This document shows, one piece after another, positions 27,157 to 56,805 of a stretch of DNA of 64,000 bases. Source of the stretch: an uncultured Gammaproteobacteria bacterium (lineage in GTDB: Bacteria; Patescibacteriota; Patescibacteriia; Magasanikbacterales; GWA2-37-8); the NCBI GenBank assembly GCA_964496095.1, contig CAZBWU010000001.1:121474-185473 (forward strand), given 5' to 3'. How positions within the stretch are numbered: position 1 is the stretch's first letter; every line of letters starts with the position of its first letter. The notes beneath the pieces are model-generated. The model searched no databases. It was not told the DNA's origin and worked only from the letters and a program-made list of their open reading frames with translations. The translations under genes were made by a program, and so were the position numbers.

Positions 27157-27238
27157 GCCGAAGTGGCGGAATTGGTAGACGCACACGACTCAAAATCGTG
27201 CGGAGAAATCCATGAGAGTTCGATTCTCTCCTTCGGCA
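27157..27238 (+). tRNA. tRNA-Leu (anticodon CAA), long variable arm, CCA not encoded
   Basis: Acceptor GCCGAAG/CTTCGGC, anticodon stem CACGA/TCGTG, loop CTCAAAA, T-arm GAGAGTTCGATTCTCTC. Confidence 0.9.
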
Positions 27239-27325
27239 CATTAAAAATTTGACATGAGTATGGCTACATGATACAGTTTTAATAGTATGATAATGACTGT
27301 CCAACAAAACTTTGCTTACTATTTT

Positions 27326-27400
27326 AGACGCTCTGGCTAGGGACGTGTTATTTTGTTAGTGCAAACAATAACGTCGCTCTAGCCAGAGCGTCTTTTTTTA
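27326..27400 (+). terminator. Long hairpin terminator (15-bp stem AGACGCTCTGGCTAG/CTAGCCAGAGCGTCT + T7)
   Basis: Read directly; preceded by TTGACA-N18-TACAGT near 27250. Confidence 0.65.
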
Positions 27401-27426
27401 TTTTACACAGTTTGTTCTTTACAAAA

Positions 27427-27770
27427 GGTCAGGGCGGTCGCCGGCAAGAGTAGAAAAAGTTTTTCTTTTCTTGCTGGCGACCTCCCTGCCAATGAGTGGG
27501 AGGAGAAAGGGTGGGGCATATGCCCTCCGTTGATCCGACTGTCACTCCTCCGATTGCTGAGCAGCCGGAGGGGCCTACTCCCTCCACGTCTGCTTCTAGT
27601 CCTTCTGGCAGCGACCCCCAGAGAGAGGCTGTGTCTTCGCCTCCGCAAGCTGACAAGCTCGCGGGCGGTAACTGGGGCAAGAAGCCTAGCCTAGGTTGGT
27701 AGAGATGACCAGGCAGGCGCGAGGGCCGCCCTGACCGAGATTCGGTTGGGGCGGCCGCTTTTATTTTAAA
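27427..27770. other. GC-rich (~62%) island bounded by 11-bp inverted repeats GGTCAGGGCGG/CCGCCCTGACC, with terminal GC hairpin + T-run; contains a 60-codon Pro/Ser-rich ORF with Shine-Dalgarno
   Basis: Composition shift versus AT-rich flanks; inverted repeats at 27427-27437 and 27727-27737. Confidence 0.5.
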
Positions 27771-34676: not shown

Positions 34677-34830
34677 AGTAATTAAATTTTATCCTATTTT
34701 TTTGATTAAGGCAATTACCATTGACATTCTGTCTCCTTTGTGGTAAGGTGCGCCCCGACCCATCTAGCCCGGCATATCGCTGGAGGATGAGGGGTCATCT
34801 CACCAGTTCCGTTACTCGTCGGAGGATTCC

Positions 34831-35187
34831 ATGAACCGCTTCGGTGGTCTCTCGTTCGTCACCCTCGTCACCCTCGCCATCACCGCCTGCACCGAGTCCG
34901 CCGACATCGAGTCGGCGCCGGTCATCACCGATCCGCACGGCCGCGAGGCGGCCGTCGTGGACATCAGCGAGCTGGACCTCGACATGCGGGCGATCGCGAC
35001 CGATCTGGTCGATGAGGTCAGCACGACGCCGCCGCCCAGCGGCGGCGTCATCGAGAAGGGGTGCCGCTGGCTGGAGCTCGATTTCCTCGGTTGCGCGGTG
35101 TCGGTCGGCGCCTGCTTCATCCCGAGCTCCTTCGAGCCGGGCTGGTCGGTGGCGGTGCTCGTCACCGAGCCCTACTGCGAGCCCTAG
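34831..35187 (+). CDS. Putative lipoprotein of foreign (high-GC, actinobacterial-like) codon usage inside a ~560-bp ~68% GC island
   Basis: GGAGG 7 nt upstream; lipobox LAITAC; GC3 near 90% versus ~25% in neighbours; GGGCttcGCCC hairpin after stop; overlapping ORFs in other frames are composition artefacts. Confidence 0.55.
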   Translation: MNRFGGLSFVTLVTLAITACTESADIESAPVITDPHGREAAVVDISELDLDMRAIATDLVDEVSTTPPPSGGVIEKGCRWLELDFLGCAVSVGACFIPSSFEPGWSVAVLVTEPYCEP

Positions 35188-35412
35188 CGGGCTTCGGCCC
35201 CTGGGAGGTCACCGGCGGGTGCCTCGACCGGTCCCCTGCCCGCGGACGTAGAGCCGCGGAGAGGCGCAGCCGTTCACGCGCTGCCGCCTGGTCGTTCGTT
35301 GTCGCGTAATGTTTATAAATTATTTGTAGATATTACCCGAACGATCAGGATTTTTTTAAAAAACACTGCTTAGTAATAGGCGGTGTTTTTAATATGTATG
35401 AATTAATAAATA

Positions 35413-35445
35413 AAAATCCTAGATTTTAATCTAGGATTTTTATAG
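35413..35445 (-). terminator. gyrA terminator: perfect hairpin AAAATCCTAGAT-ttta-ATCTAGGATTTT
   Basis: Read directly; second hairpin at 35358-35390. Confidence 0.6.
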
Positions 35446-37924: not shown

Positions 37925-38176
37925 TTTATTAGCTTACCACCGCCATGAGGCGGGGTCCCGCTGTAGCGGGATTAGGTTGTAGCTTTTTAGCATGTTAGTG
38001 ATCAATGGTTTTCGTCTGTCATCCTGAATGAAATGAAGTATCCCTGTTAGTTTCGTTCGTTGTCATTCCCAACTTGATTGGGAATCCAGGGTGCGTTCGA
38101 ATTGTCTGGATTCCCGCTTTGGCGGGAATGACATTGTGCGGACAGAGATTCTTCGCTCTGCTCAGAATGACAGTTT
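37925..38176. repeat. Cluster of hairpins and TGTCAT(T/C)CC repeats (direct at 38016 and 38061; inverted GGGAATGACA at 38124) in the gyrA upstream region
   Basis: Hairpins CCGCCatgaGGCGG, TCCCGCTgtAGCGGGA, ATTCCCaacttgatTGGGAAT, GGGAATCCAG...CTGGATTCCC. Confidence 0.55.
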
Positions 38177-52815: not shown

Positions 52816-53652
52816 ATGAAAAAAATAATTGCCCTGTTCGCAGTCATCGCAGTCTTAGGTGTTATAGTTGTTTTTTATAATTCCAGAAAACCAATCTCGC
52901 AAACTGATGAATATAATAATGGGATAGAAGATTTGGCTGGTTTAATTATAGAAAATGTAGAATCGGGTAGTATTATTTTATCGCCCTTGAAAATTATAGG
53001 GCGTATTACTGGTGATGGTTGGATCGGTTTTGAAGGTCAGGTAGGTAATGTTAGTTTAGTAGATAGAGAAGGTAATGTATTAGATACTAAGCCACTGACT
53101 GCTACTTCCGATTGGATGACTTCGACCGTCCGTTTTGAAGCTAATATAGAATTTTTTACCACTGCTACGTCGGGTAAACTTGTCTTTAGAAATGAAAACC
53201 CGAGTGGGGAGCCATCAAGAGACAGATCTGTTTCTCGGAATATAAAATTCGCTCCAGCTGGAGAAGTGGTGAATTTAAAAGCGTATTTTAGTAATAGTAA
53301 TCTTGATCCAAAGATTACTTGCAAAGAAGTTTTTCCTGTGGCTAGGACTGTGGCCAAGACTGCAGGAGTAGCCAGAGCCGCGCTTGAAGAAATGCTCAAA
53401 GGTCCAACTTCGCAAGAACAGGCCGGCGGGTTTGCTAGTATGATTAACCTTGGTGTAAAGATTAATAGTCTCACTATAGATAAAGGCGTAGCCAAAGTTG
53501 ATTTTGATGGGACAATTCAGCAAGGCGTAGGTGGGTCATGTCGGGTAAGTATGATGAGATTGCAAATAGAGCAAACTTTAAAACAATTTCCAACTGTACA
53601 GAGTGTGATTATTTCTGTTGATGGTAAGACAGAAGATGTTTTACAACCATGA
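52816..53652 (+). CDS. Membrane-anchored GerMN/Gmad2-like domain protein
   Basis: N-terminal TM; C-terminal GerMN-like region; 4-nt overlap with uvrC; conserved CACTCATTTCGTATATG start motif and 26-bp perfect palindrome AAAATATTTAGCTAGCTAAATATTTT upstream. Confidence 0.55.
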   Translation: MKKIIALFAVIAVLGVIVVFYNSRKPISQTDEYNNGIEDLAGLIIENVESGSIILSPLKIIGRITGDGWIGFEGQVGNVSLVDREGNVLDTKPLTATSDWMTSTVRFEANIEFFTTATSGKLVFRNENPSGEPSRDRSVSRNIKFAPAGEVVNLKAYFSNSNLDPKITCKEVFPVARTVAKTAGVARAALEEMLKGPTSQEQAGGFASMINLGVKINSLTIDKGVAKVDFDGTIQQGVGGSCRVSMMRLQIEQTLKQFPTVQSVIISVDGKTEDVLQP

Positions 53653-54824
53653 ACATTGTAGACCAAGCCAAACAATTTCCTCTCAGTCCGGGAGTATACA
53701 TATACAAAGATAACAGTGGTAAGCCTCTCTATGTTGGCCGAGCCACTTCTTTGCGTCGGCGGGTTTTACAGTACTTCCGTAAAGATATTGACCCGCGCAT
53801 TGGCGAGATGGTGGCTTTGGCTTACAAGGTTGACTATATACAAACAGAGACGGTTTTGGAAGCGATTATTTTGGAAGCCAACCTGATCAAAAAATATTGG
53901 CCAAAGTACAATGTCAAAGACAAAGACAATCGTTCGTTTATTTTTTTGGTTTTTCCCAAAAGTGATTTTCCGAAGCCGATTATTGTGCGGGGGAGAGAGT
54001 TAGAAAGTTTTCCAACTTCGCAAGCCAAAATTTTTGGCCCCTATCAGAGTCTAACAGTTGTCCGCAATGCCTTGCAAATTATTCGTCGGATTTTTCCATA
54101 TAGTCTATGTAAGACTGTGGGAAAACCATGTTTTGATTATCAGATTGGCTTATGCCCGGGAGTTTGTGTGGGAGCGATTACGAAAAAAGATTATCAGAAA
54201 AATATTAACAATATTGTTTTACTACTCAAAGGCGAAAAGAAAAAATTATTAAAAAAACTGTCTAAAGAAAATCCGCAGGCCGCAATTTATCTCAAACATA
54301 TTCAGGATGTGACGCTGGTTTCGCGGGATGAATATGGGGTAGAAGCAGGCTCGGAGAATTTTAATAGGATTGAGGGCTATGACATATCGCATTTTGCCGG
54401 TAAAGAAACCTATGGCTCAATGGTAGTTTTTACCGACGGCAAGCCGGACAAAGCTCAGTATAGGTTGTTTAAAATAAAAGACGCGCCTGCTAATAATGAT
54501 TTGGAATCGCTCAAAGAAATGCTAGAGAGAAGGCTCAAGCACACCGAATGGCCAAAACCAGATTTGATTCTCATTGATGGTGGTAGACCGCAGATAGATT
54601 ATTTGGCCAAAACTATGGAGCAATTTCAAGTAAAAAGTCCGTGGTTGGGATTATCAAAATTAAATGGTGATCATTTGGTATTTGCCCCAGGAACAAAAAA
54701 TGTGTTCAAGGATTTGGCTGAAACTATTAAAAGAACTTTACAGCAAGTGCGTGATGAGGCGCATCGATTTGCGAATAGAGGACGAAGTAGAAGGTATTTT
54801 AATGATAACCTTGGCAGTAGGTAA
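53649..54824 (+). CDS. uvrC: Excinuclease ABC subunit C, short form (GIY-YIG + RNase H-like endonuclease domain; no C-terminal HhH)
   Basis: GIY-YIG PGVYIYKD...LYVGRA; IEGYDISH motif. Confidence 0.85.
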   Translation: MNIVDQAKQFPLSPGVYIYKDNSGKPLYVGRATSLRRRVLQYFRKDIDPRIGEMVALAYKVDYIQTETVLEAIILEANLIKKYWPKYNVKDKDNRSFIFLVFPKSDFPKPIIVRGRELESFPTSQAKIFGPYQSLTVVRNALQIIRRIFPYSLCKTVGKPCFDYQIGLCPGVCVGAITKKDYQKNINNIVLLLKGEKKKLLKKLSKENPQAAIYLKHIQDVTLVSRDEYGVEAGSENFNRIEGYDISHFAGKETYGSMVVFTDGKPDKAQYRLFKIKDAPANNDLESLKEMLERRLKHTEWPKPDLILIDGGRPQIDYLAKTMEQFQVKSPWLGLSKLNGDHLVFAPGTKNVFKDLAETIKRTLQQVRDEAHRFANRGRSRRYFNDNLGSR

Positions 54825-54897
54825 AATTGACAAAAAGCCATTTTTGGCATATAAACAAGCGATAAGTCGTTCTTTAAAAAGACATCATACGTAACAT

Positions 54898-54954
54898 AAC
54901 AAACTAGGATTTTAAATTATCTATAGATTAGGTAATTTAAAATCCTAGTTTGTT
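54898..54954. repeat. Perfect 21-bp inverted repeat AACAAACTAGGATTTTAAATT / AATTTAAAATCCTAGTTTGTT with 15-nt loop
   Basis: Read directly; sits at the left edge of a GC-rich island. Confidence 0.7.
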
Positions 54955-55022
54955 CCGAACGTTCATCACCAATGCCCCTGTTGGAGGGGAAGAAAGAAAA
55001 AAGGGAGGGGGTGATATATCAA

Positions 55023-55340
55023 ATGAGCAAAGACGAAAAGCTGGACTATCCGGCCGAATTCGTCGCGGCAGTCGCGGCTGAGTGGCCGCCACCCAACGAC
55101 AAGGTGATACCTGGGAGGTTGGCTGAAGGAGACCCGAAGATCGGGGCGCTTCTTGCCCAAGCTTCAGAGGATCCTTTCACGCCCCAAGAGGTCGTCAAGT
55201 TCTTGGAGGCAGGTCAGGGGGCAGATCTCCTGAGTCAAGCTCAGCGGAGAATCCGGCTGGGCAAGCTCTTCGAGCAGTGGTTGAAGATCGTTCAGCCATC
55301 AACACCATCACCTCGTCGGTCTCGTCGTCGCGCTCGGTAG
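55023..55340 (+). CDS. Hypothetical 105-aa protein with Arg-rich C-terminus, in a ~58% GC island (54955-55430) of atypical codon usage
   Basis: GGAGGGGG Shine-Dalgarno before ATG; composition shift; GTCAGCggagcgatGCTGAC hairpin after stop. Confidence 0.45.
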   Translation: MSKDEKLDYPAEFVAAVAAEWPPPNDKVIPGRLAEGDPKIGALLAQASEDPFTPQEVVKFLEAGQGADLLSQAQRRIRLGKLFEQWLKIVQPSTPSPRRSRRRAR

Positions 55341-55452
55341 GATGATGTCAGCGGAGCGATGCTGACGGCCAGGCACAAAGCCCAGGGCGCCGTCGCTCCG
55401 GCCCCGCATTATCCTTATCAATACTGGTAATGATAATCTAGGGCCTAAATTT

Positions 55453-55481
55453 GACAGTTTTGTCCATATATAGTATAATTT
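55453..55481 (+). promoter_or_regulatory. Consensus sigma70 promoter TTGACA-N17-TATAAT for the rpsA leader
   Basis: Exact hexamers, 17-nt spacer. Confidence 0.7.
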
Positions 55482-55485
55482 AGGT

Positions 55486-55574
55486 ATTAAAAATATTGAC
55501 CCAGTGAAATAATTCCGACCAAGTCGGAATTGCCACAGAGTGGTATTTCACGGGGTAAACCAATTAAGCCCTTC
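55486..55574 (+). ncRNA. Conserved structured leader RNA motif, copy 2 (upstream of rpsA)
   Basis: About 85% identical to 9791-9884 with compensatory base-pair changes in two helices. Confidence 0.6.
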
Positions 55575-55641
55575 CAATTTAGAGAAGAGCACCCGTAGCC
55601 AATTTATTGGCAGGGATAAGGAGTATTTTTTTGTTAAATAT

Positions 55642-56805
55642 ATGTCAGAAGAAAAAAACCAAAAAGAAGTTCAGGACTTCAAAACCCTGCTCGCGTCTTA
55701 TCAACTTACCATTCCAAAAGAAGGGGATGTTGTTAAGTGTAAAATAATTTCTATCGACAAAGGTGAAGTGCATGTAGACATCGAGGGTTTGACTGTGGGT
55801 GTGGTTCGTGGACGAGAATTGTTTGCCGAGTCCAAGGAATACATGAGTCTAAAAGTGGGCGACGAAGTAGAGGCCACTGTTTTGGATCTAGAAAATGAAA
55901 ATGGCGAAATGGAATTATCATTCCGCATTGCCGGTTATCAACGCGCTTGGGGTAATGTCAAGAAATGGATGCAAGACAATATTACTATCAAAGGAAAAGT
56001 GTTGGCTGCTAATAAAGGTGGTTTGATGATGCAGGTAGAAGGCTTGGCTGGTTTTATGCCAGTTTCTCAGCTTAACCCTGATCACTACCCAAGAGTTACA
56101 GGTGGCGACAAAAATCGTATTTTAGAAAAATTACGAGAATTGATGAATAAAGAATTAGAAGTGAAAGTAATTGATGTTAATGAGAAAGAAGAAAAATTAA
56201 TCGTTTCTGAAAAAGCCGTTTGGGAAGATGCTCAAAAGACTGTTTTGGAATCATACAAAGTTGGCGACGCAGTAGAAGGAGAGATCTCTGCTTTAACTTC
56301 CTTTGGCGCCTTTGTGAAATTTGGTCAAGACTTAGAAGGTTTGGTTCATATTTCCGAAATCGCTTGGCAGCGTATTGATCATCCTAAGGATATTCTCAAA
56401 GTGGGTGATAAGGTTAAAGCTCAAATTATCCAACTCGACAGATCCAAGATTTATTTGTCTATCAAACGTTTGGTAGATGATCCATGGAAGACTGTAAAGG
56501 ATAAATATAAAGTTGGCGACAAGGTTGAAGGTAAGATTTTGAAGATTGAACCGTTTGGTTTGATGGTTGCCTTGGACAAAGACATTCACGGCTTGGCTCA
56601 CATCTCTGAGTTAGCTGATGAAGGTATTACCAATATCTCCGAGAAGTTCAAGATCGGTCAAACTACTGACTTTGAAGTTGTTTCCTTAGAACCACCAGAG
56701 CACCGATTAGGTTTGAGATTATATGGTGTTAAAGGAAAAGCCAAAAAAGTAGAAGAAAAGCCAGTCGACGAAGCCAAGAAACCAGCTGAGGAGAAAAAGG
56801 CTTAA
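55642..56805 (+). CDS. rpsA: 30S ribosomal protein S1 (four S1 domains)
   Basis: Repeated S1 OB-fold motifs (G..V.G.V......G.FV); the ORF-track start at 55540 overlaps the leader motif and is unlikely. Confidence 0.9.
   Translation: MSEEKNQKEVQDFKTLLASYQLTIPKEGDVVKCKIISIDKGEVHVDIEGLTVGVVRGRELFAESKEYMSLKVGDEVEATVLDLENENGEMELSFRIAGYQRAWGNVKKWMQDNITIKGKVLAANKGGLMMQVEGLAGFMPVSQLNPDHYPRVTGGDKNRILEKLRELMNKELEVKVIDVNEKEEKLIVSEKAVWEDAQKTVLESYKVGDAVEGEISALTSFGAFVKFGQDLEGLVHISEIAWQRIDHPKDILKVGDKVKAQIIQLDRSKIYLSIKRLVDDPWKTVKDKYKVGDKVEGKILKIEPFGLMVALDKDIHGLAHISELADEGITNISEKFKIGQTTDFEVVSLEPPEHRLGLRLYGVKGKAKKVEEKPVDEAKKPAEEKKA

What the first reader, a model, noticed from the sequence alone, without database searches (positions are those of the whole stretch)
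54898..55430. Third compositional island flanked by a perfect 21-bp inverted repeat, encoding a small Arg-tailed protein
A ~58% GC segment between uvrC and the rpsA promoter starts at a flawless 21-bp-arm hairpin (54898-54954). It encodes a 105-aa protein of atypical codon usage (MSKDEKLDYPAEF...SPRRSRRRAR) with a strong Shine-Dalgarno. With the islands at 27427 and 34745, this makes three short foreign-composition inserts in 64 kb, each with a small ORF and hairpin boundaries. This suggests a recurring small-cargo insertion process.
Basis: partly seen in the sequence, partly recalled or inferred. Interest (0 to 1): 0.55.

Follow-up and report, generated by a model that had tools for sequence, protein, structure and literature searches.

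The report
Phage-type small gene in hairpin-flanked slot
The GC-rich patch between uvrC and rpsA is a real, self-contained small gene from a phage-associated protein family, sitting in a variable slot of this ultra-small (CPR) bacterium where relatives carry different GC-rich small genes between the same two conserved RNA hairpins.

Summary
The hairpin at 54898-54954 is the strongest local inverted repeat in the 64 kb. A 58-61% GC segment follows it in a ~39% GC Candidatus Magasanikbacteria genome, and the 105-aa ORF is present. It is not an artefact: two independent assemblies (99.8% and 98.2% identical) carry it at the same place.

The ORF is a real gene. It has about 19 remote homologues, a confident five-helix model and no known family. 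Some homologues lie beside a sigma-factor gene on 59-62% GC phage-like contigs. Others are single-gene GC islets in other AT-rich genomes.

The hairpin is not an insertion scar. It is a conserved element with compensatory changes, found only in this uvrC-rpsA slot, in front of unrelated GC-rich ORFs in related species. A conserved 3' stem-loop closes each module. Two more distant relatives have an empty slot. Similarity between species covers the two hairpins, never the ORFs.

My best reading is a moron-like transcription unit in a recombination hot spot, with a coding core drawn from a GC-rich phage gene pool. Islands 1 and 2 do not share its boundaries, and the 30 window ORFs scanned include no recombinase. 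The idea of a hairpin-bounded insertion process is therefore only partly supported. Protein function is unknown.

The parts
54827..54855 (+). Promoter-like site TTGACA-N17-TATAAA, starting 3 nt after the uvrC stop codon; inferred promoter of the small-gene module
   Evidence: Read directly from the sequence. The scan tool did not list it because its rule requires T at position 6 of the -10 hexamer. Comparable TTGACA/TTGACT-N17 sites precede the hairpin in L009, L008b, L010/L007c and L014. No expression data.
54867..54876 (+). Leader motif TCGTTCTTTA (TYGTTCTTTA)
   Evidence: It has only two matches in 64 kb. The other is at 27412, directly upstream of island 1. Variants lie near the modules of L009, L010 and L014 and in the uvrB-uvrA slot of L004-L006. 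The count is not significant on its own, and its role is unknown.
54898..54954 (+). Conserved 26-bp leader hairpin (22 bp perfect)
   Evidence: strongest local inverted repeat. RNAalifold on 7 loci gives 26 pairs, 13 of them with compensatory double changes, with G-U pairs on the + strand. Model R2, built without the window, hits it at 48.1 bits, E 3.6e-12, as the only significant hit in the window. The leader 54855-55030 folds with z = -5.8.
55003..55015 (+). Shine-Dalgarno region GGGAGGGGGTGAT
   Evidence: Read directly from the sequence. It ends 7 nt before the ATG.
55023..55340 (+). 105-aa ORF: five-helix protein of an uncharacterised, phage-associated small-protein family (YPxEF...FP...LHxAL.xGD..VG..L...PE.IV...G...EL..EA...R..LY.EW)
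   Evidence: Translation. About 19 remote homologues at E 2e-7 to 9e-4 over nearly full length; alignment A1. The profile re-search scores the window protein at 1.6e-24. AF2 model has pLDDT 86 and pTM 0.70. Best viral structural match is an uncultured Caudovirales protein, TM 0.63-0.70. No Pfam, PHROGs, NCBIfam, PADLOC or PDB family.
55352..55407 (+). Conserved 3' GC-rich stem-loop (GGAGCG...CGCTCC) followed by a GGCCCCGC motif; inferred transcript end or stabiliser
   Evidence: Alignment A5. All 8 loci fold into a stem-loop with a conserved base and compensatory interior. blastn finds win-L009 and win-L014 similarity here but not in the ORFs. There is no U-tract, so terminator function is inferred only.
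55451..55479 (+). Native rpsA promoter (TTGACA-17-TATAAT, 12/12); right-hand limit of the module
   Evidence: It is conserved in all relatives, including island-free L011 and L016.
55558..55642 (+). Native rpsA 5' leader (two hairpins, GGATAAGG, U-run); not part of the island
   Evidence: 9 of 13 pairs show compensatory changes across 9 loci. It is present where the slot is empty.

Best explanation
The segment from about 54827 to 55410 is a self-contained, moron-like transcription unit. It sits in a lineage-specific variable slot between the uvrC stop codon and the native rpsA promoter of a Candidatus Magasanikbacteria (CPR) chromosome.

Shown:
- It is real and inherited in close strains.
- It contains a promoter-like site, a conserved 26-bp leader hairpin, a strong SD, a 105-aa ORF and a conserved 3' GC-rich stem-loop.
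- The ORF encodes a folded five-helix protein of an uncharacterised family. Other members lie next to a sigma-factor gene on 59-62% GC phage-like contigs, or occur as similar single-gene GC islets in other AT-rich genomes.
- Related species carry one to three such modules in the same slot. They share the two hairpins but have different ORFs. More distant relatives have an empty slot.

Inferred:
- The coding core came by horizontal transfer from a GC-rich phage-type gene pool and is only partly ameliorated.
- Turnover in the slot happens by homologous recombination, either in the flanking core genes or in the conserved leader and trailer elements, not by a dedicated recombinase.
- The leader hairpin acts at the RNA level, as a processing, stabilising or attenuating element. 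The 3' stem-loop ends or stabilises the transcript before the rpsA promoter.
- The protein acts in phage-host conflict or transcription control. This last point is the weakest step.
For: Real and inherited.

Host identity and conserved Germane-uvrC-rpsA synteny.

Empty slots of 186 and 237 bp in L011 and L016; GC-rich islands at the same place in L003, L005, L007-L010 and L014.

Coding status: remote homologues, profile re-search, AF2 pLDDT 86, coding-type GC1>GC2<GC3. The orthologous slot ORFs L008b/L009 differ 20/12/37 by codon position.

Phage link: P0019, P0024 and P0026 lie on 27-55 kb contigs with an endolysin, HNH, DSPc phosphatase, a sigma factor (phrog_351, 2e-66) and phrog_35624. Those contigs are 59-62% GC, as the island is. 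The best BFVD match is a Caudovirales protein.

The same family as promoter-plus-terminator GC islets in AT-rich cellular contigs L255, L256 and L258.

Conserved flanks and variable core.

Patchy SNP clusters in the flanking genes of the 98% strain indicate local recombination.

No recombinase among the 30 window ORFs scanned.

The moron definition (own promoter and terminator, GC content unlike the neighbours) comes from PMC3594210. Transfer of individual genes into Patescibacteria is documented in PMC12455944.
Against: - There are no expression data. The promoter, the terminator and the hairpin's RNA role rest on sequence only, and the 3' stem-loop lacks a U-tract.
- The slot is old. Modules persist at 55-61% GC across species-level divergence (L008b/L009 are 80% identical and still about 60% GC). 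A single past transfer followed by amelioration would not predict this.
- hhalign links the window's family to the L014/L007m slot ORFs (probability 71%). Part of the diversity may therefore be in-place divergence and not replacement.
- The phage-like contigs show no structural genes within the +/-6 kb I could read, and they match no characterised phage closely. Their host is unknown, and the direction of transfer (phage to cell or cell to phage) is not established.
- tblastn finds nothing in 50,697 phage records or 72,556 plasmids.
Confidence: 0.6

Rival explanations
1. Native, fast-evolving slot gene. One ancestral small gene with conserved 5' and 3' UTR hairpins has lived between uvrC and rpsA since before these species split. 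Its coding region diverges extremely fast, for example under an arms race. Its high GC content is maintained by selection or biased repair and is not a relic of transfer. Phages picked the gene up from such hosts.
For: The leader hairpin and 3' stem-loop are conserved in 8-9 species. hhalign gives probability 71% (E 3.6e-5, 55 columns in register) between the window family and the L014/L007m ORFs, and a weak in-register signal to the L010 group. The modules of L007c/L010 and L008b/L009 are inherited vertically. GC stays near 60% after 20% nucleotide divergence.
Against: L008b/L009, L007a and L008a show no similarity to the family. The island's GC content and GC3 match the phage-like homologues and not the host. 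The same family occurs as isolated islets in unrelated genomic contexts, next to HPF, AbiEii and SemiSWEET genes. L011 and L016 lack the module entirely.
Confidence: 0.22
2. Hairpin-bounded mobile cassette system. The islands would be cargo of an integron-like, MITE-like or ssDNA-hairpin-recognising element. A recombinase encoded elsewhere would insert them repeatedly at hairpin sites.
For: There are three islets in 64 kb. L007 carries three tandem modules in this slot and L008 two. Structured hairpins flank a variable ORF. TYGTTCTTTA lies upstream of islands 1 and 3 only. G-T wobbles would also be tolerated in folded single-stranded DNA.
Against: The hairpin family is confined to this one slot in 252 kb searched and is absent from islands 1 and 2 and from L255/L256. 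The 5' and 3' ends are unrelated to each other, so there are no terminal inverted repeats. The one candidate target duplication (54800/55428, 13 of 15) lies in a 3' tail that aligns with L014 and is not seen in relatives, so it is probably chance. The hairpin ends (AACAAAC / GTTTGTT) do not fit the attC R-box consensus RYYYAAC/GTTRRRY as I recall it. Each module has its own promoter, unlike integron cassettes. The 30 window ORFs scanned include no integrase or transposase.
Confidence: 0.1
3. Structured non-coding RNA. GC-rich islands in AT-rich genomes often mark structural RNAs, and on this reading the ORF would be a by-product of high GC content.
For: The ORF region folds somewhat better than shuffles (z = -2.9). 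Conserved hairpins lie at both ends. GC-rich sequence readily produces long ORFs on both strands in the relatives.
Against: Full-length protein homologues at 27-42% identity in unrelated DNA contexts. A confident AF2 fold. A coding-type codon-position GC profile. Third-position excess in the L008b/L009 pair. No Rfam family, even with permissive thresholds; only generic miRNA-like hairpin noise. No DNA similarity between the cores of different modules.
Confidence: 0.03
4. Assembly chimera or contaminant read-through inserted into a MAG contig.
For: Abrupt composition change; metagenome-derived genome.
Against: The identical island with both flanks occurs in an independent Logan assembly, and again in a 98%-identical strain from another project. 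Island 2 is likewise seen in two further runs. Syntenic GC islands exist in seven other species' MAGs.
Confidence: 0.01

Closest known systems
Phage 'morons' (independent transcription units added between two otherwise adjacent genes; HK97/HK022 paradigm, PMC3594210)
   Same: A single small gene with its own promoter-like site and a 3' hairpin. Its GC content clearly differs from both neighbours. It lies between two genes that are directly adjacent in some relatives (L011, L016). Its protein family is shared with phage-like genomes.
   Different: It sits in a bacterial core chromosome between uvrC and rpsA, not in a phage or prophage. The window shows no prophage genes. The 3' hairpin lacks the U-tract of a classical factor-independent terminator. 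Conserved leader and trailer hairpins shared by modules with different ORFs are not a described moron feature.
Chromosomal HGT hot spots (accessory genes turning over between conserved core genes by homologous recombination in the flanks). This comparison rests on general knowledge, not on a tool result.
   Same: The slot between conserved core genes has variable content in every species examined, and is sometimes empty. Patchy SNP clusters in the flanks indicate recombination. No local recombinase was found.
   Different: The scale is very small, with single genes of 75-180 aa. The composition bias is consistent (GC-rich cargo in an AT-rich host). Conserved RNA-like hairpins lie inside the slot, flanking the variable ORF.
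Integron gene cassettes (ORF plus a structured attC recombination site)
   Same: Small ORFs of unknown function, each associated with an imperfect-palindrome hairpin. They can be stacked in tandem (L007, L008). Cargo is variable and the structured element is conserved.
   Different: No intI gene and no attI. The hairpin ends do not fit the attC core sites. The hairpin is upstream of the ORF and downstream of a promoter. Cassettes here carry their own promoters. The hairpin family is confined to one locus.
RNase III processing hairpins between phage T7 early genes (analogy for the leader hairpin only; from general knowledge)
   Same: A long (about 26 bp), nearly perfect double-stranded RNA stem between transcription units. 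Structure is conserved with compensatory changes.
   Different: No cleavage data. T7 sites have characteristic internal loops. The element here could equally be a 5' stabiliser, an attenuator or a protein-binding site.

Membership tests
Moron (sensu Hendrix/Cumby; PMC3594210) | [quoted passage not shown] | tested here: met
   Island 0.575-0.615 GC against 0.33-0.44 in the flanks. ORF GC3 is 0.62 against 0.33-0.39 in host genes.
Moron (sensu Hendrix/Cumby; PMC3594210) | Own promoter | tested here: inconclusive
   TTGACA-N17-TATAAA at 54827-54855, read from the sequence, with analogous sites in relatives. This is a consensus match only. The tool's stricter rule did not list it, and there are no transcript data.
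Moron (sensu Hendrix/Cumby; PMC3594210) | Own terminator | tested here: inconclusive
   A conserved GC-rich 3' stem-loop at 55352-55400, but with no U-tract. The scan did not call it a terminator.
Moron (sensu Hendrix/Cumby; PMC3594210) | An addition between two genes that are adjacent in related genomes | tested here: met
   In L011 and L016, uvrC is followed directly by the rpsA promoter and leader, with spacers of 186 and 237 bp.
Moron (sensu Hendrix/Cumby; PMC3594210) | Resides in a phage or prophage genome | tested here: not met
   The neighbours are uvrA, a Germane-domain protein, uvrC, rpsA and ftsH. The 30 window ORFs scanned include no phage or integrase genes. The unit is therefore moron-like and not a moron in the strict sense.
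Integron gene cassette | attC site with R''/R' core sites (RYYYAAC ... GTTRRRY) | tested here: not met
   By inspection, the hairpin ends are AACAAAC ... GTTTGTT (window) and GAACTTGG ... CCAAGTTC (relatives). The consensus is recalled from memory; no attC model was run.
Integron gene cassette | Linked intI tyrosine recombinase and attI | tested here: not met
   No Phage_integrase or other recombinase domain in the 30 window ORFs scanned or in the called genes of L001/L002. The rest of the genome could not be tested.
Integron gene cassette | Cassettes are generally promoterless | tested here: not met
   Each module has its own TTGACA-N17 promoter-like site.
MITE / small non-autonomous transposon | Terminal inverted repeats and target-site duplication | tested here: not met
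   The 5' and 3' ends are unrelated. The only flanking direct repeat (13 of 15 nt, 54800/55428) lies in a conserved 3' tail and is absent from relatives.
MITE / small non-autonomous transposon | Multiple dispersed copies in the genome | tested here: not met
   Models R1 and R2 hit only the uvrC-rpsA slot in the window and in 252 kb of related loci. The whole genome was not available.
Uncharacterised YPxEF small-protein family (alignment A1, defined here) | Full-length similarity to family members, about 85-120 aa, shared motifs | tested here: met
   phmmer E 2e-7 to 9e-4 over residues ~5-95. Invariant Y9, F13, L44, A73 and W86. Profile score 1.6e-24.
Any Rfam RNA family | Score at or above the family gathering threshold | tested here: not met
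   tRNA-Leu is the only match in the window. A permissive scan of 54780-55660 gives only miRNA-precursor-like matches far below threshold.

The most novel reading that the evidence does not exclude
Magasanikbacteria may keep a dedicated expression slot. It would consist of a promoter, a conserved 26-bp leader hairpin and a conserved 3' stem-loop between uvrC and rpsA. Small GC-rich genes from phages, possibly phages of the high-GC organisms these episymbionts live on, would be swapped into it by recombination at the two structured elements. That would be an integrase-free cassette-exchange system. The GC islets scattered through these genomes would then record the CPR cell's phage and host contacts, and could be used to infer the unknown hosts of CPR lineages.
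Probability: 0.15. Interest if true: 0.7.

Novelty: new variant of a known kind. Interest (0 to 1): 0.42.

Why it matters
CPR/Patescibacteria genomes are tiny and streamlined, and their hosts and phages are mostly unknown. This window shows that they still hold small, independently expressed genes of foreign composition in hot spots between core genes. At least one of these genes belongs to a protein family shared with GC-rich phage-like elements.

If the pattern is general (three islets in 64 kb here), such islets are a cheap marker, visible from sequence alone. They could be used to trace who exchanges DNA with CPR bacteria.

The pair of conserved hairpins framing interchangeable ORFs also gives two new candidate regulatory RNA elements and a defined locus for studying gene turnover. 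The five-helix protein next to phage sigma-factor genes is an uncharacterised family that merits a structure and a binding-partner screen.

Tried and rejected
- Exact-pattern scans for the conserved hairpin arm (CTTGGAATTTWAGARTA). None forms the hairpin, so all are chance hits to an AT-rich 17-mer. This used the single metagenome scan.
- tblastn against phage records (window protein, an L085 homologue, the L009 ORF, the island 2 ORF) and of the window protein against plasmids. Nothing was found except a marginal hit to Arthrobacter phage Inked gp86 (E 0.05).
- RuvB-like neighbour gene against phages. Only generic RuvB similarity, so the phage group was not identified.
- The 15-nt direct repeat TAATGATAAYCTWGG bracketing the module was considered as a target duplication. 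I rejected it as probable chance: the right copy aligns with the L014 3' tail, and no equivalent exists in other loci.
- Look-ups of the 122-aa form and of UvrC on their long NCBI contigs found no record.
- The profile search of relatives' slot ORFs with A1 was not significant. Only hhalign gave a signal, for L014/L007m.
- The exact sequences of the island 1 and island 2 ORFs are not in the protein collection. Island 2 has one 92% relative and nothing else.
Full report
**Observation**

The region is as described, with small corrections. The inverted repeat has 22-nt perfect arms (54898-54919 / 54933-54954). It extends to 26-nt arms at 96% with a 5-nt loop, and it is the strongest local inverted repeat in the whole 64-kb window. 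Directly after it, GC content rises to 0.575-0.615 in 200-nt windows, against 0.33-0.44 in the flanks. The ORF 55023-55340 translates to the reported 105-aa protein. It follows a GGGAGGGGGTGAT Shine-Dalgarno region. Its GC1/2/3 is 0.68/0.47/0.62, while host genes have GC3 of 0.33-0.39. uvrC ends at 54824, and a 12/12 sigma-70-type promoter for rpsA lies at 55451-55479.

**Not an artefact**

The exact protein is encoded on an independent Logan assembly (SRR10036082; 2295 bp, 99.8% identical, spanning both flanks). It is also on a contig of GCA_020049755.1 that is 98.2% identical. In that second strain the 51 differences fall in dense patches inside the Germane-domain gene and uvrC. None falls between 54513 and 55641. 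This looks like recombination tracts in the flanks.

**Host and synteny**

UvrC finds its closest relatives (73-86% amino-acid identity) in Candidatus Magasanikbacteria MAGs of the CPR/Patescibacteria. The order Germane-uvrC-rpsA is conserved in these genomes. Pfam scans of 30 window ORFs show core chromosome only: EF-Tu, the ribosomal-protein/secY/adk/map cluster, parAB, gyrA, relA, uvrA/B/C, recO, recG, ruvX, ftsH, a type IV pilus ATPase, transporters and large surface proteins. None of the 30 ORFs scanned is an integrase, transposase or phage gene.

**The key comparison**

In L011 and L016, uvrC is followed almost directly by the rpsA promoter and leader, with spacers of 186 and 237 bp. In L003, L005, L007, L008, L009, L010 and L014 the spacer is 0.7-2 kb and contains one to three GC-rich islands of 53-67% GC in 38-44% GC genomes. 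Each island carries an ORF of 75-180 aa on the same strand, with an SD-like site and usually its own TTGACA-N17 promoter-like site.

The ORFs fall into at least four groups with no detectable similarity by BLAST: {L005, L007b, L010, possibly L003}, {L007m, L014}, {L008b, L009}, and the window's own. L007a and L008a are additional singletons. In L006, L012 and L015 the same position holds other small genes with their own promoters that are not GC-rich. The position is thus a variable slot for small accessory genes in this clade.

**Conserved flanks, variable core**

Upstream of most GC-rich ORFs lies a long AT-rich hairpin whose arm sequence is conserved (GAACTTGGAATTTTAGAATA and variants). RNAalifold on seven loci predicts 26 pairs. 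Thirteen of them have compensatory double changes, and several are G-U pairs on the + strand. A covariance model built only from the relatives hits the window's hairpin at 48.1 bits (E about 4e-12). That is the only significant match in 64 kb, and the + strand scores higher than the - strand.

A model search over 252 kb (window, Magasanikbacteria loci, phage-like contigs, other islets) finds this hairpin family only in the uvrC-rpsA slot. New copies appear in L004, directly after uvrC at the contig end, and before L007's middle module. There is none at islands 1 or 2.

At the 3' end, all eight modules fold into a GC-rich stem-loop. Its base is conserved (GGGAG...CUCCC) and followed by GCCCC(G), while the interior pairs differ in a compensatory way. 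Pairwise blastn between modules of different species finds similarity only in the hairpin, the 3' stem-loop and the native rpsA promoter and leader. It never finds similarity in the ORFs. The rpsA leader itself is a conserved two-hairpin element present even where the slot is empty. This places the island's right edge upstream of 55451.

**The protein**

The word-indexed search found only the protein itself. The exhaustive HMMER search found about 19 proteins of 85-123 aa that are 27-42% identical over nearly the full length (E 2e-7 to 9e-4). They align well and share the motifs YPxEF, FP...LHxAL.xGD..VG..L and PE.IV..I..G...EL..EA...R..LY.EW. The family matches nothing in Pfam, PHROGs, NCBIfam, PADLOC or PDB sequences.

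AlphaFold2 with this alignment gives a confident five-helix domain (pLDDT 86, pTM 0.70). It has no PDB neighbour. The best viral match is an uncharacterised 94-aa protein of an uncultured Caudovirales phage (TM 0.63-0.70, probability 1.0). The Arg-rich tail is specific to this member, although basic tails recur in the family.

**Where the family lives**

Three members lie on 27-55 kb contigs that are 59-62% GC. These contigs carry an endolysin (PG_binding_1 + Peptidase_M15_4), an HNH endonuclease, a dual-specificity phosphatase, a sigma factor (phrog_351, 2e-66) and a RuvB-like ATPase, nearly all on one strand. The family gene lies one or two genes downstream of the sigma-factor gene each time. 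These contigs are phage-like, but I saw no structural genes in the stretches available. These contigs appear to belong to one related lineage.

Three other members (L255, L256, L258) are single-gene islets of 51-59% GC inside 31-43% GC cellular contigs. Each has its own TTGACA-N17 promoter-like site, SD and terminator hairpin. Their neighbours are unrelated: a ribosome hibernation factor, an AbiEii toxin and a SemiSWEET. The window's island is thus one of several independent examples of this gene sitting as a foreign-composition unit in an AT-rich genome.

**Replacement or divergence?**

hhalign links the family profile to the L014/L007m slot ORFs (probability 71%, E 3.6e-5, 55 columns in register). 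The link to the L010 group is only weak (probability 15%). Some of the slot's diversity is therefore very fast divergence of one family. L008b/L009, L007a and L008a look unrelated.

Modules are inherited vertically within sub-clades. L007c/L010 ORFs are 91% identical. L008b/L009 ORFs are 80% identical against 93% for uvrC, with differences of 20/12/37 by codon position, which shows coding constraint. GC content stays near 60% over that divergence. Simple amelioration after one old transfer does not predict this, and it remains unexplained.

**Mechanism proposed**

I read the segment from about 54827 to 55410 as a moron-like transcription unit. Its parts are a promoter-like site (54827-54855), a leader with the conserved hairpin, the SD, the ORF and a 3' stem-loop. 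It lies in a recombination hot spot between core genes, and its coding core comes from a GC-rich phage-type gene pool. The definition of morons (own promoter and terminator, GC content unlike the neighbours, an addition between otherwise adjacent genes) fits, except that this is a chromosome and not a phage (PMC3594210). Transfer of individual genes into Patescibacteria is documented (PMC12455944).

I infer, but have not shown, the following:
- The hairpin acts in the RNA, as a processing, stabilising or attenuating element.
- The 3' stem-loop ends or stabilises the transcript.
- Exchange occurs by homologous recombination in the flanks or at the two conserved elements.
- The protein takes part in transcription control or phage-host conflict.

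**Rivals**

- A native fast-evolving gene with selected high GC content is the main alternative (about 0.2).
- A hairpin-recognising mobile cassette system is unlikely (about 0.1). The hairpin is confined to one locus, the two ends are unrelated, there is no convincing target duplication, and no recombinase was found.
- A structured non-coding RNA is largely excluded by protein-level conservation. The ORF region folds at z = -2.9 only, and no Rfam family matches.
- An assembly artefact is excluded.

**The three-island claim**

Island 2 (ORF 34831-35187, GC3 0.94, lipoprotein-like N-terminus) is also real. It is syntenic in a ~91%-identical relative from two further runs. Its ORF is 96.6% identical there, against 92-93% for the flanks, and shows 9 nonsynonymous against 2 synonymous codon changes.

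Island 1 follows tRNA-Leu and has two long hairpins. Its ORF has a flat codon-position GC profile and is Pro/Ser-rich, so its coding status is doubtful.

The three islands share foreign composition and an intergenic position between core genes. They do not share boundary sequences, apart from a 10-mer upstream of islands 1 and 3.

**Verdict**

This is a new variant of a known kind: a horizontally acquired single-gene unit in a hot spot. Three features deserve follow-up. One is the pair of conserved hairpins framing interchangeable GC-rich ORFs. Another is the persistent GC-richness. The third is the link to an uncharacterised, phage-associated five-helix protein family.

Noticed in passing
window 55558-55642 (also L003, L005, L007-L011, L014, L016): Conserved rpsA 5' leader: two hairpins (loop CCCAAUUUAG), then GGAUAAGG and a U-run before the start codon. 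9 of 13 predicted pairs show compensatory changes across 9 species. No Rfam family reaches threshold. Candidate S1 autoregulatory leader specific to this CPR clade.
   Followed up: partly
window 34745-35300 (ORF 34831-35187): Island 2 reaches 69% GC. Its ORF has GC3 of 0.94, a lipoprotein-like N-terminus and its own TTGACA-N17-TAAGGT site. It is syntenic (relA-gyrA) in a ~91%-identical relative from two runs. There the ORF is more conserved than the flanks (96.6% against 92-93%) but shows 9 nonsynonymous against 2 synonymous codon changes.
   Followed up: partly
window 27240-27770: Island 1 lies directly after tRNA-Leu(CAA) at 27157-27239. It has two long hairpins (27324-27395, 27426-27492) and a terminator-like 3' hairpin. 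The 60-aa Pro/Ser-rich ORF has a flat GC1/2/3 of 0.61/0.66/0.59, so it may not be coding. No Rfam match.
   Followed up: partly
L004 980-1460, L005 2265-2610, L006 2300-2810: A second variable slot, upstream of uvrA in relatives. It has a conserved TTTGTTCTTTAAAAAAA motif and a hairpin CGCTGTC...GACAGCG, followed by a GC-rich island. By my reading of the sequence (no domain search was run), the minus strand of that island encodes a CheY-like receiver. The window has no island at the equivalent place.
   Followed up: no
L007 7200-8960; L008 7190-8600: Tandem stacking of three (L007) and two (L008) independent small-gene modules between uvrC and rpsA. The upstream modules (L007a, L008a) lack the conserved hairpin and end in classical U-tract terminators. 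L008a is a lipoprotein-like protein matching phrog_10397 (2.8e-5).
   Followed up: partly
window 52839-54056 compared with L001: Differences from the 98% strain cluster in dense patches (52839-52905, 53309-53341, 53948-54056), with long identical stretches between them. This is typical of recombination tracts.
   Followed up: no
window 38140-38175 and L001 783-818: A 36-nt stretch is identical, in opposite orientation, between the uvrA-Germane spacer of the related strain and a different place in the window. It may be a small repeated element or a shared terminator.
   Followed up: no
window 35410-35443: A perfect 16-bp hairpin downstream of gyrA shares CTAGGATTTT with the arm of the 54898 hairpin, but the hairpin model does not recognise it. 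It is probably a terminator and the resemblance is probably chance.
   Followed up: partly
window 53649-54824: UvrC is only 391 aa here and in all the CPR relatives (about 375-391 residues matched). The on-record hits are GIY-YIG (faint), UvrC_M and the RNase H-like domain, with no C-terminal extension.
   Followed up: no
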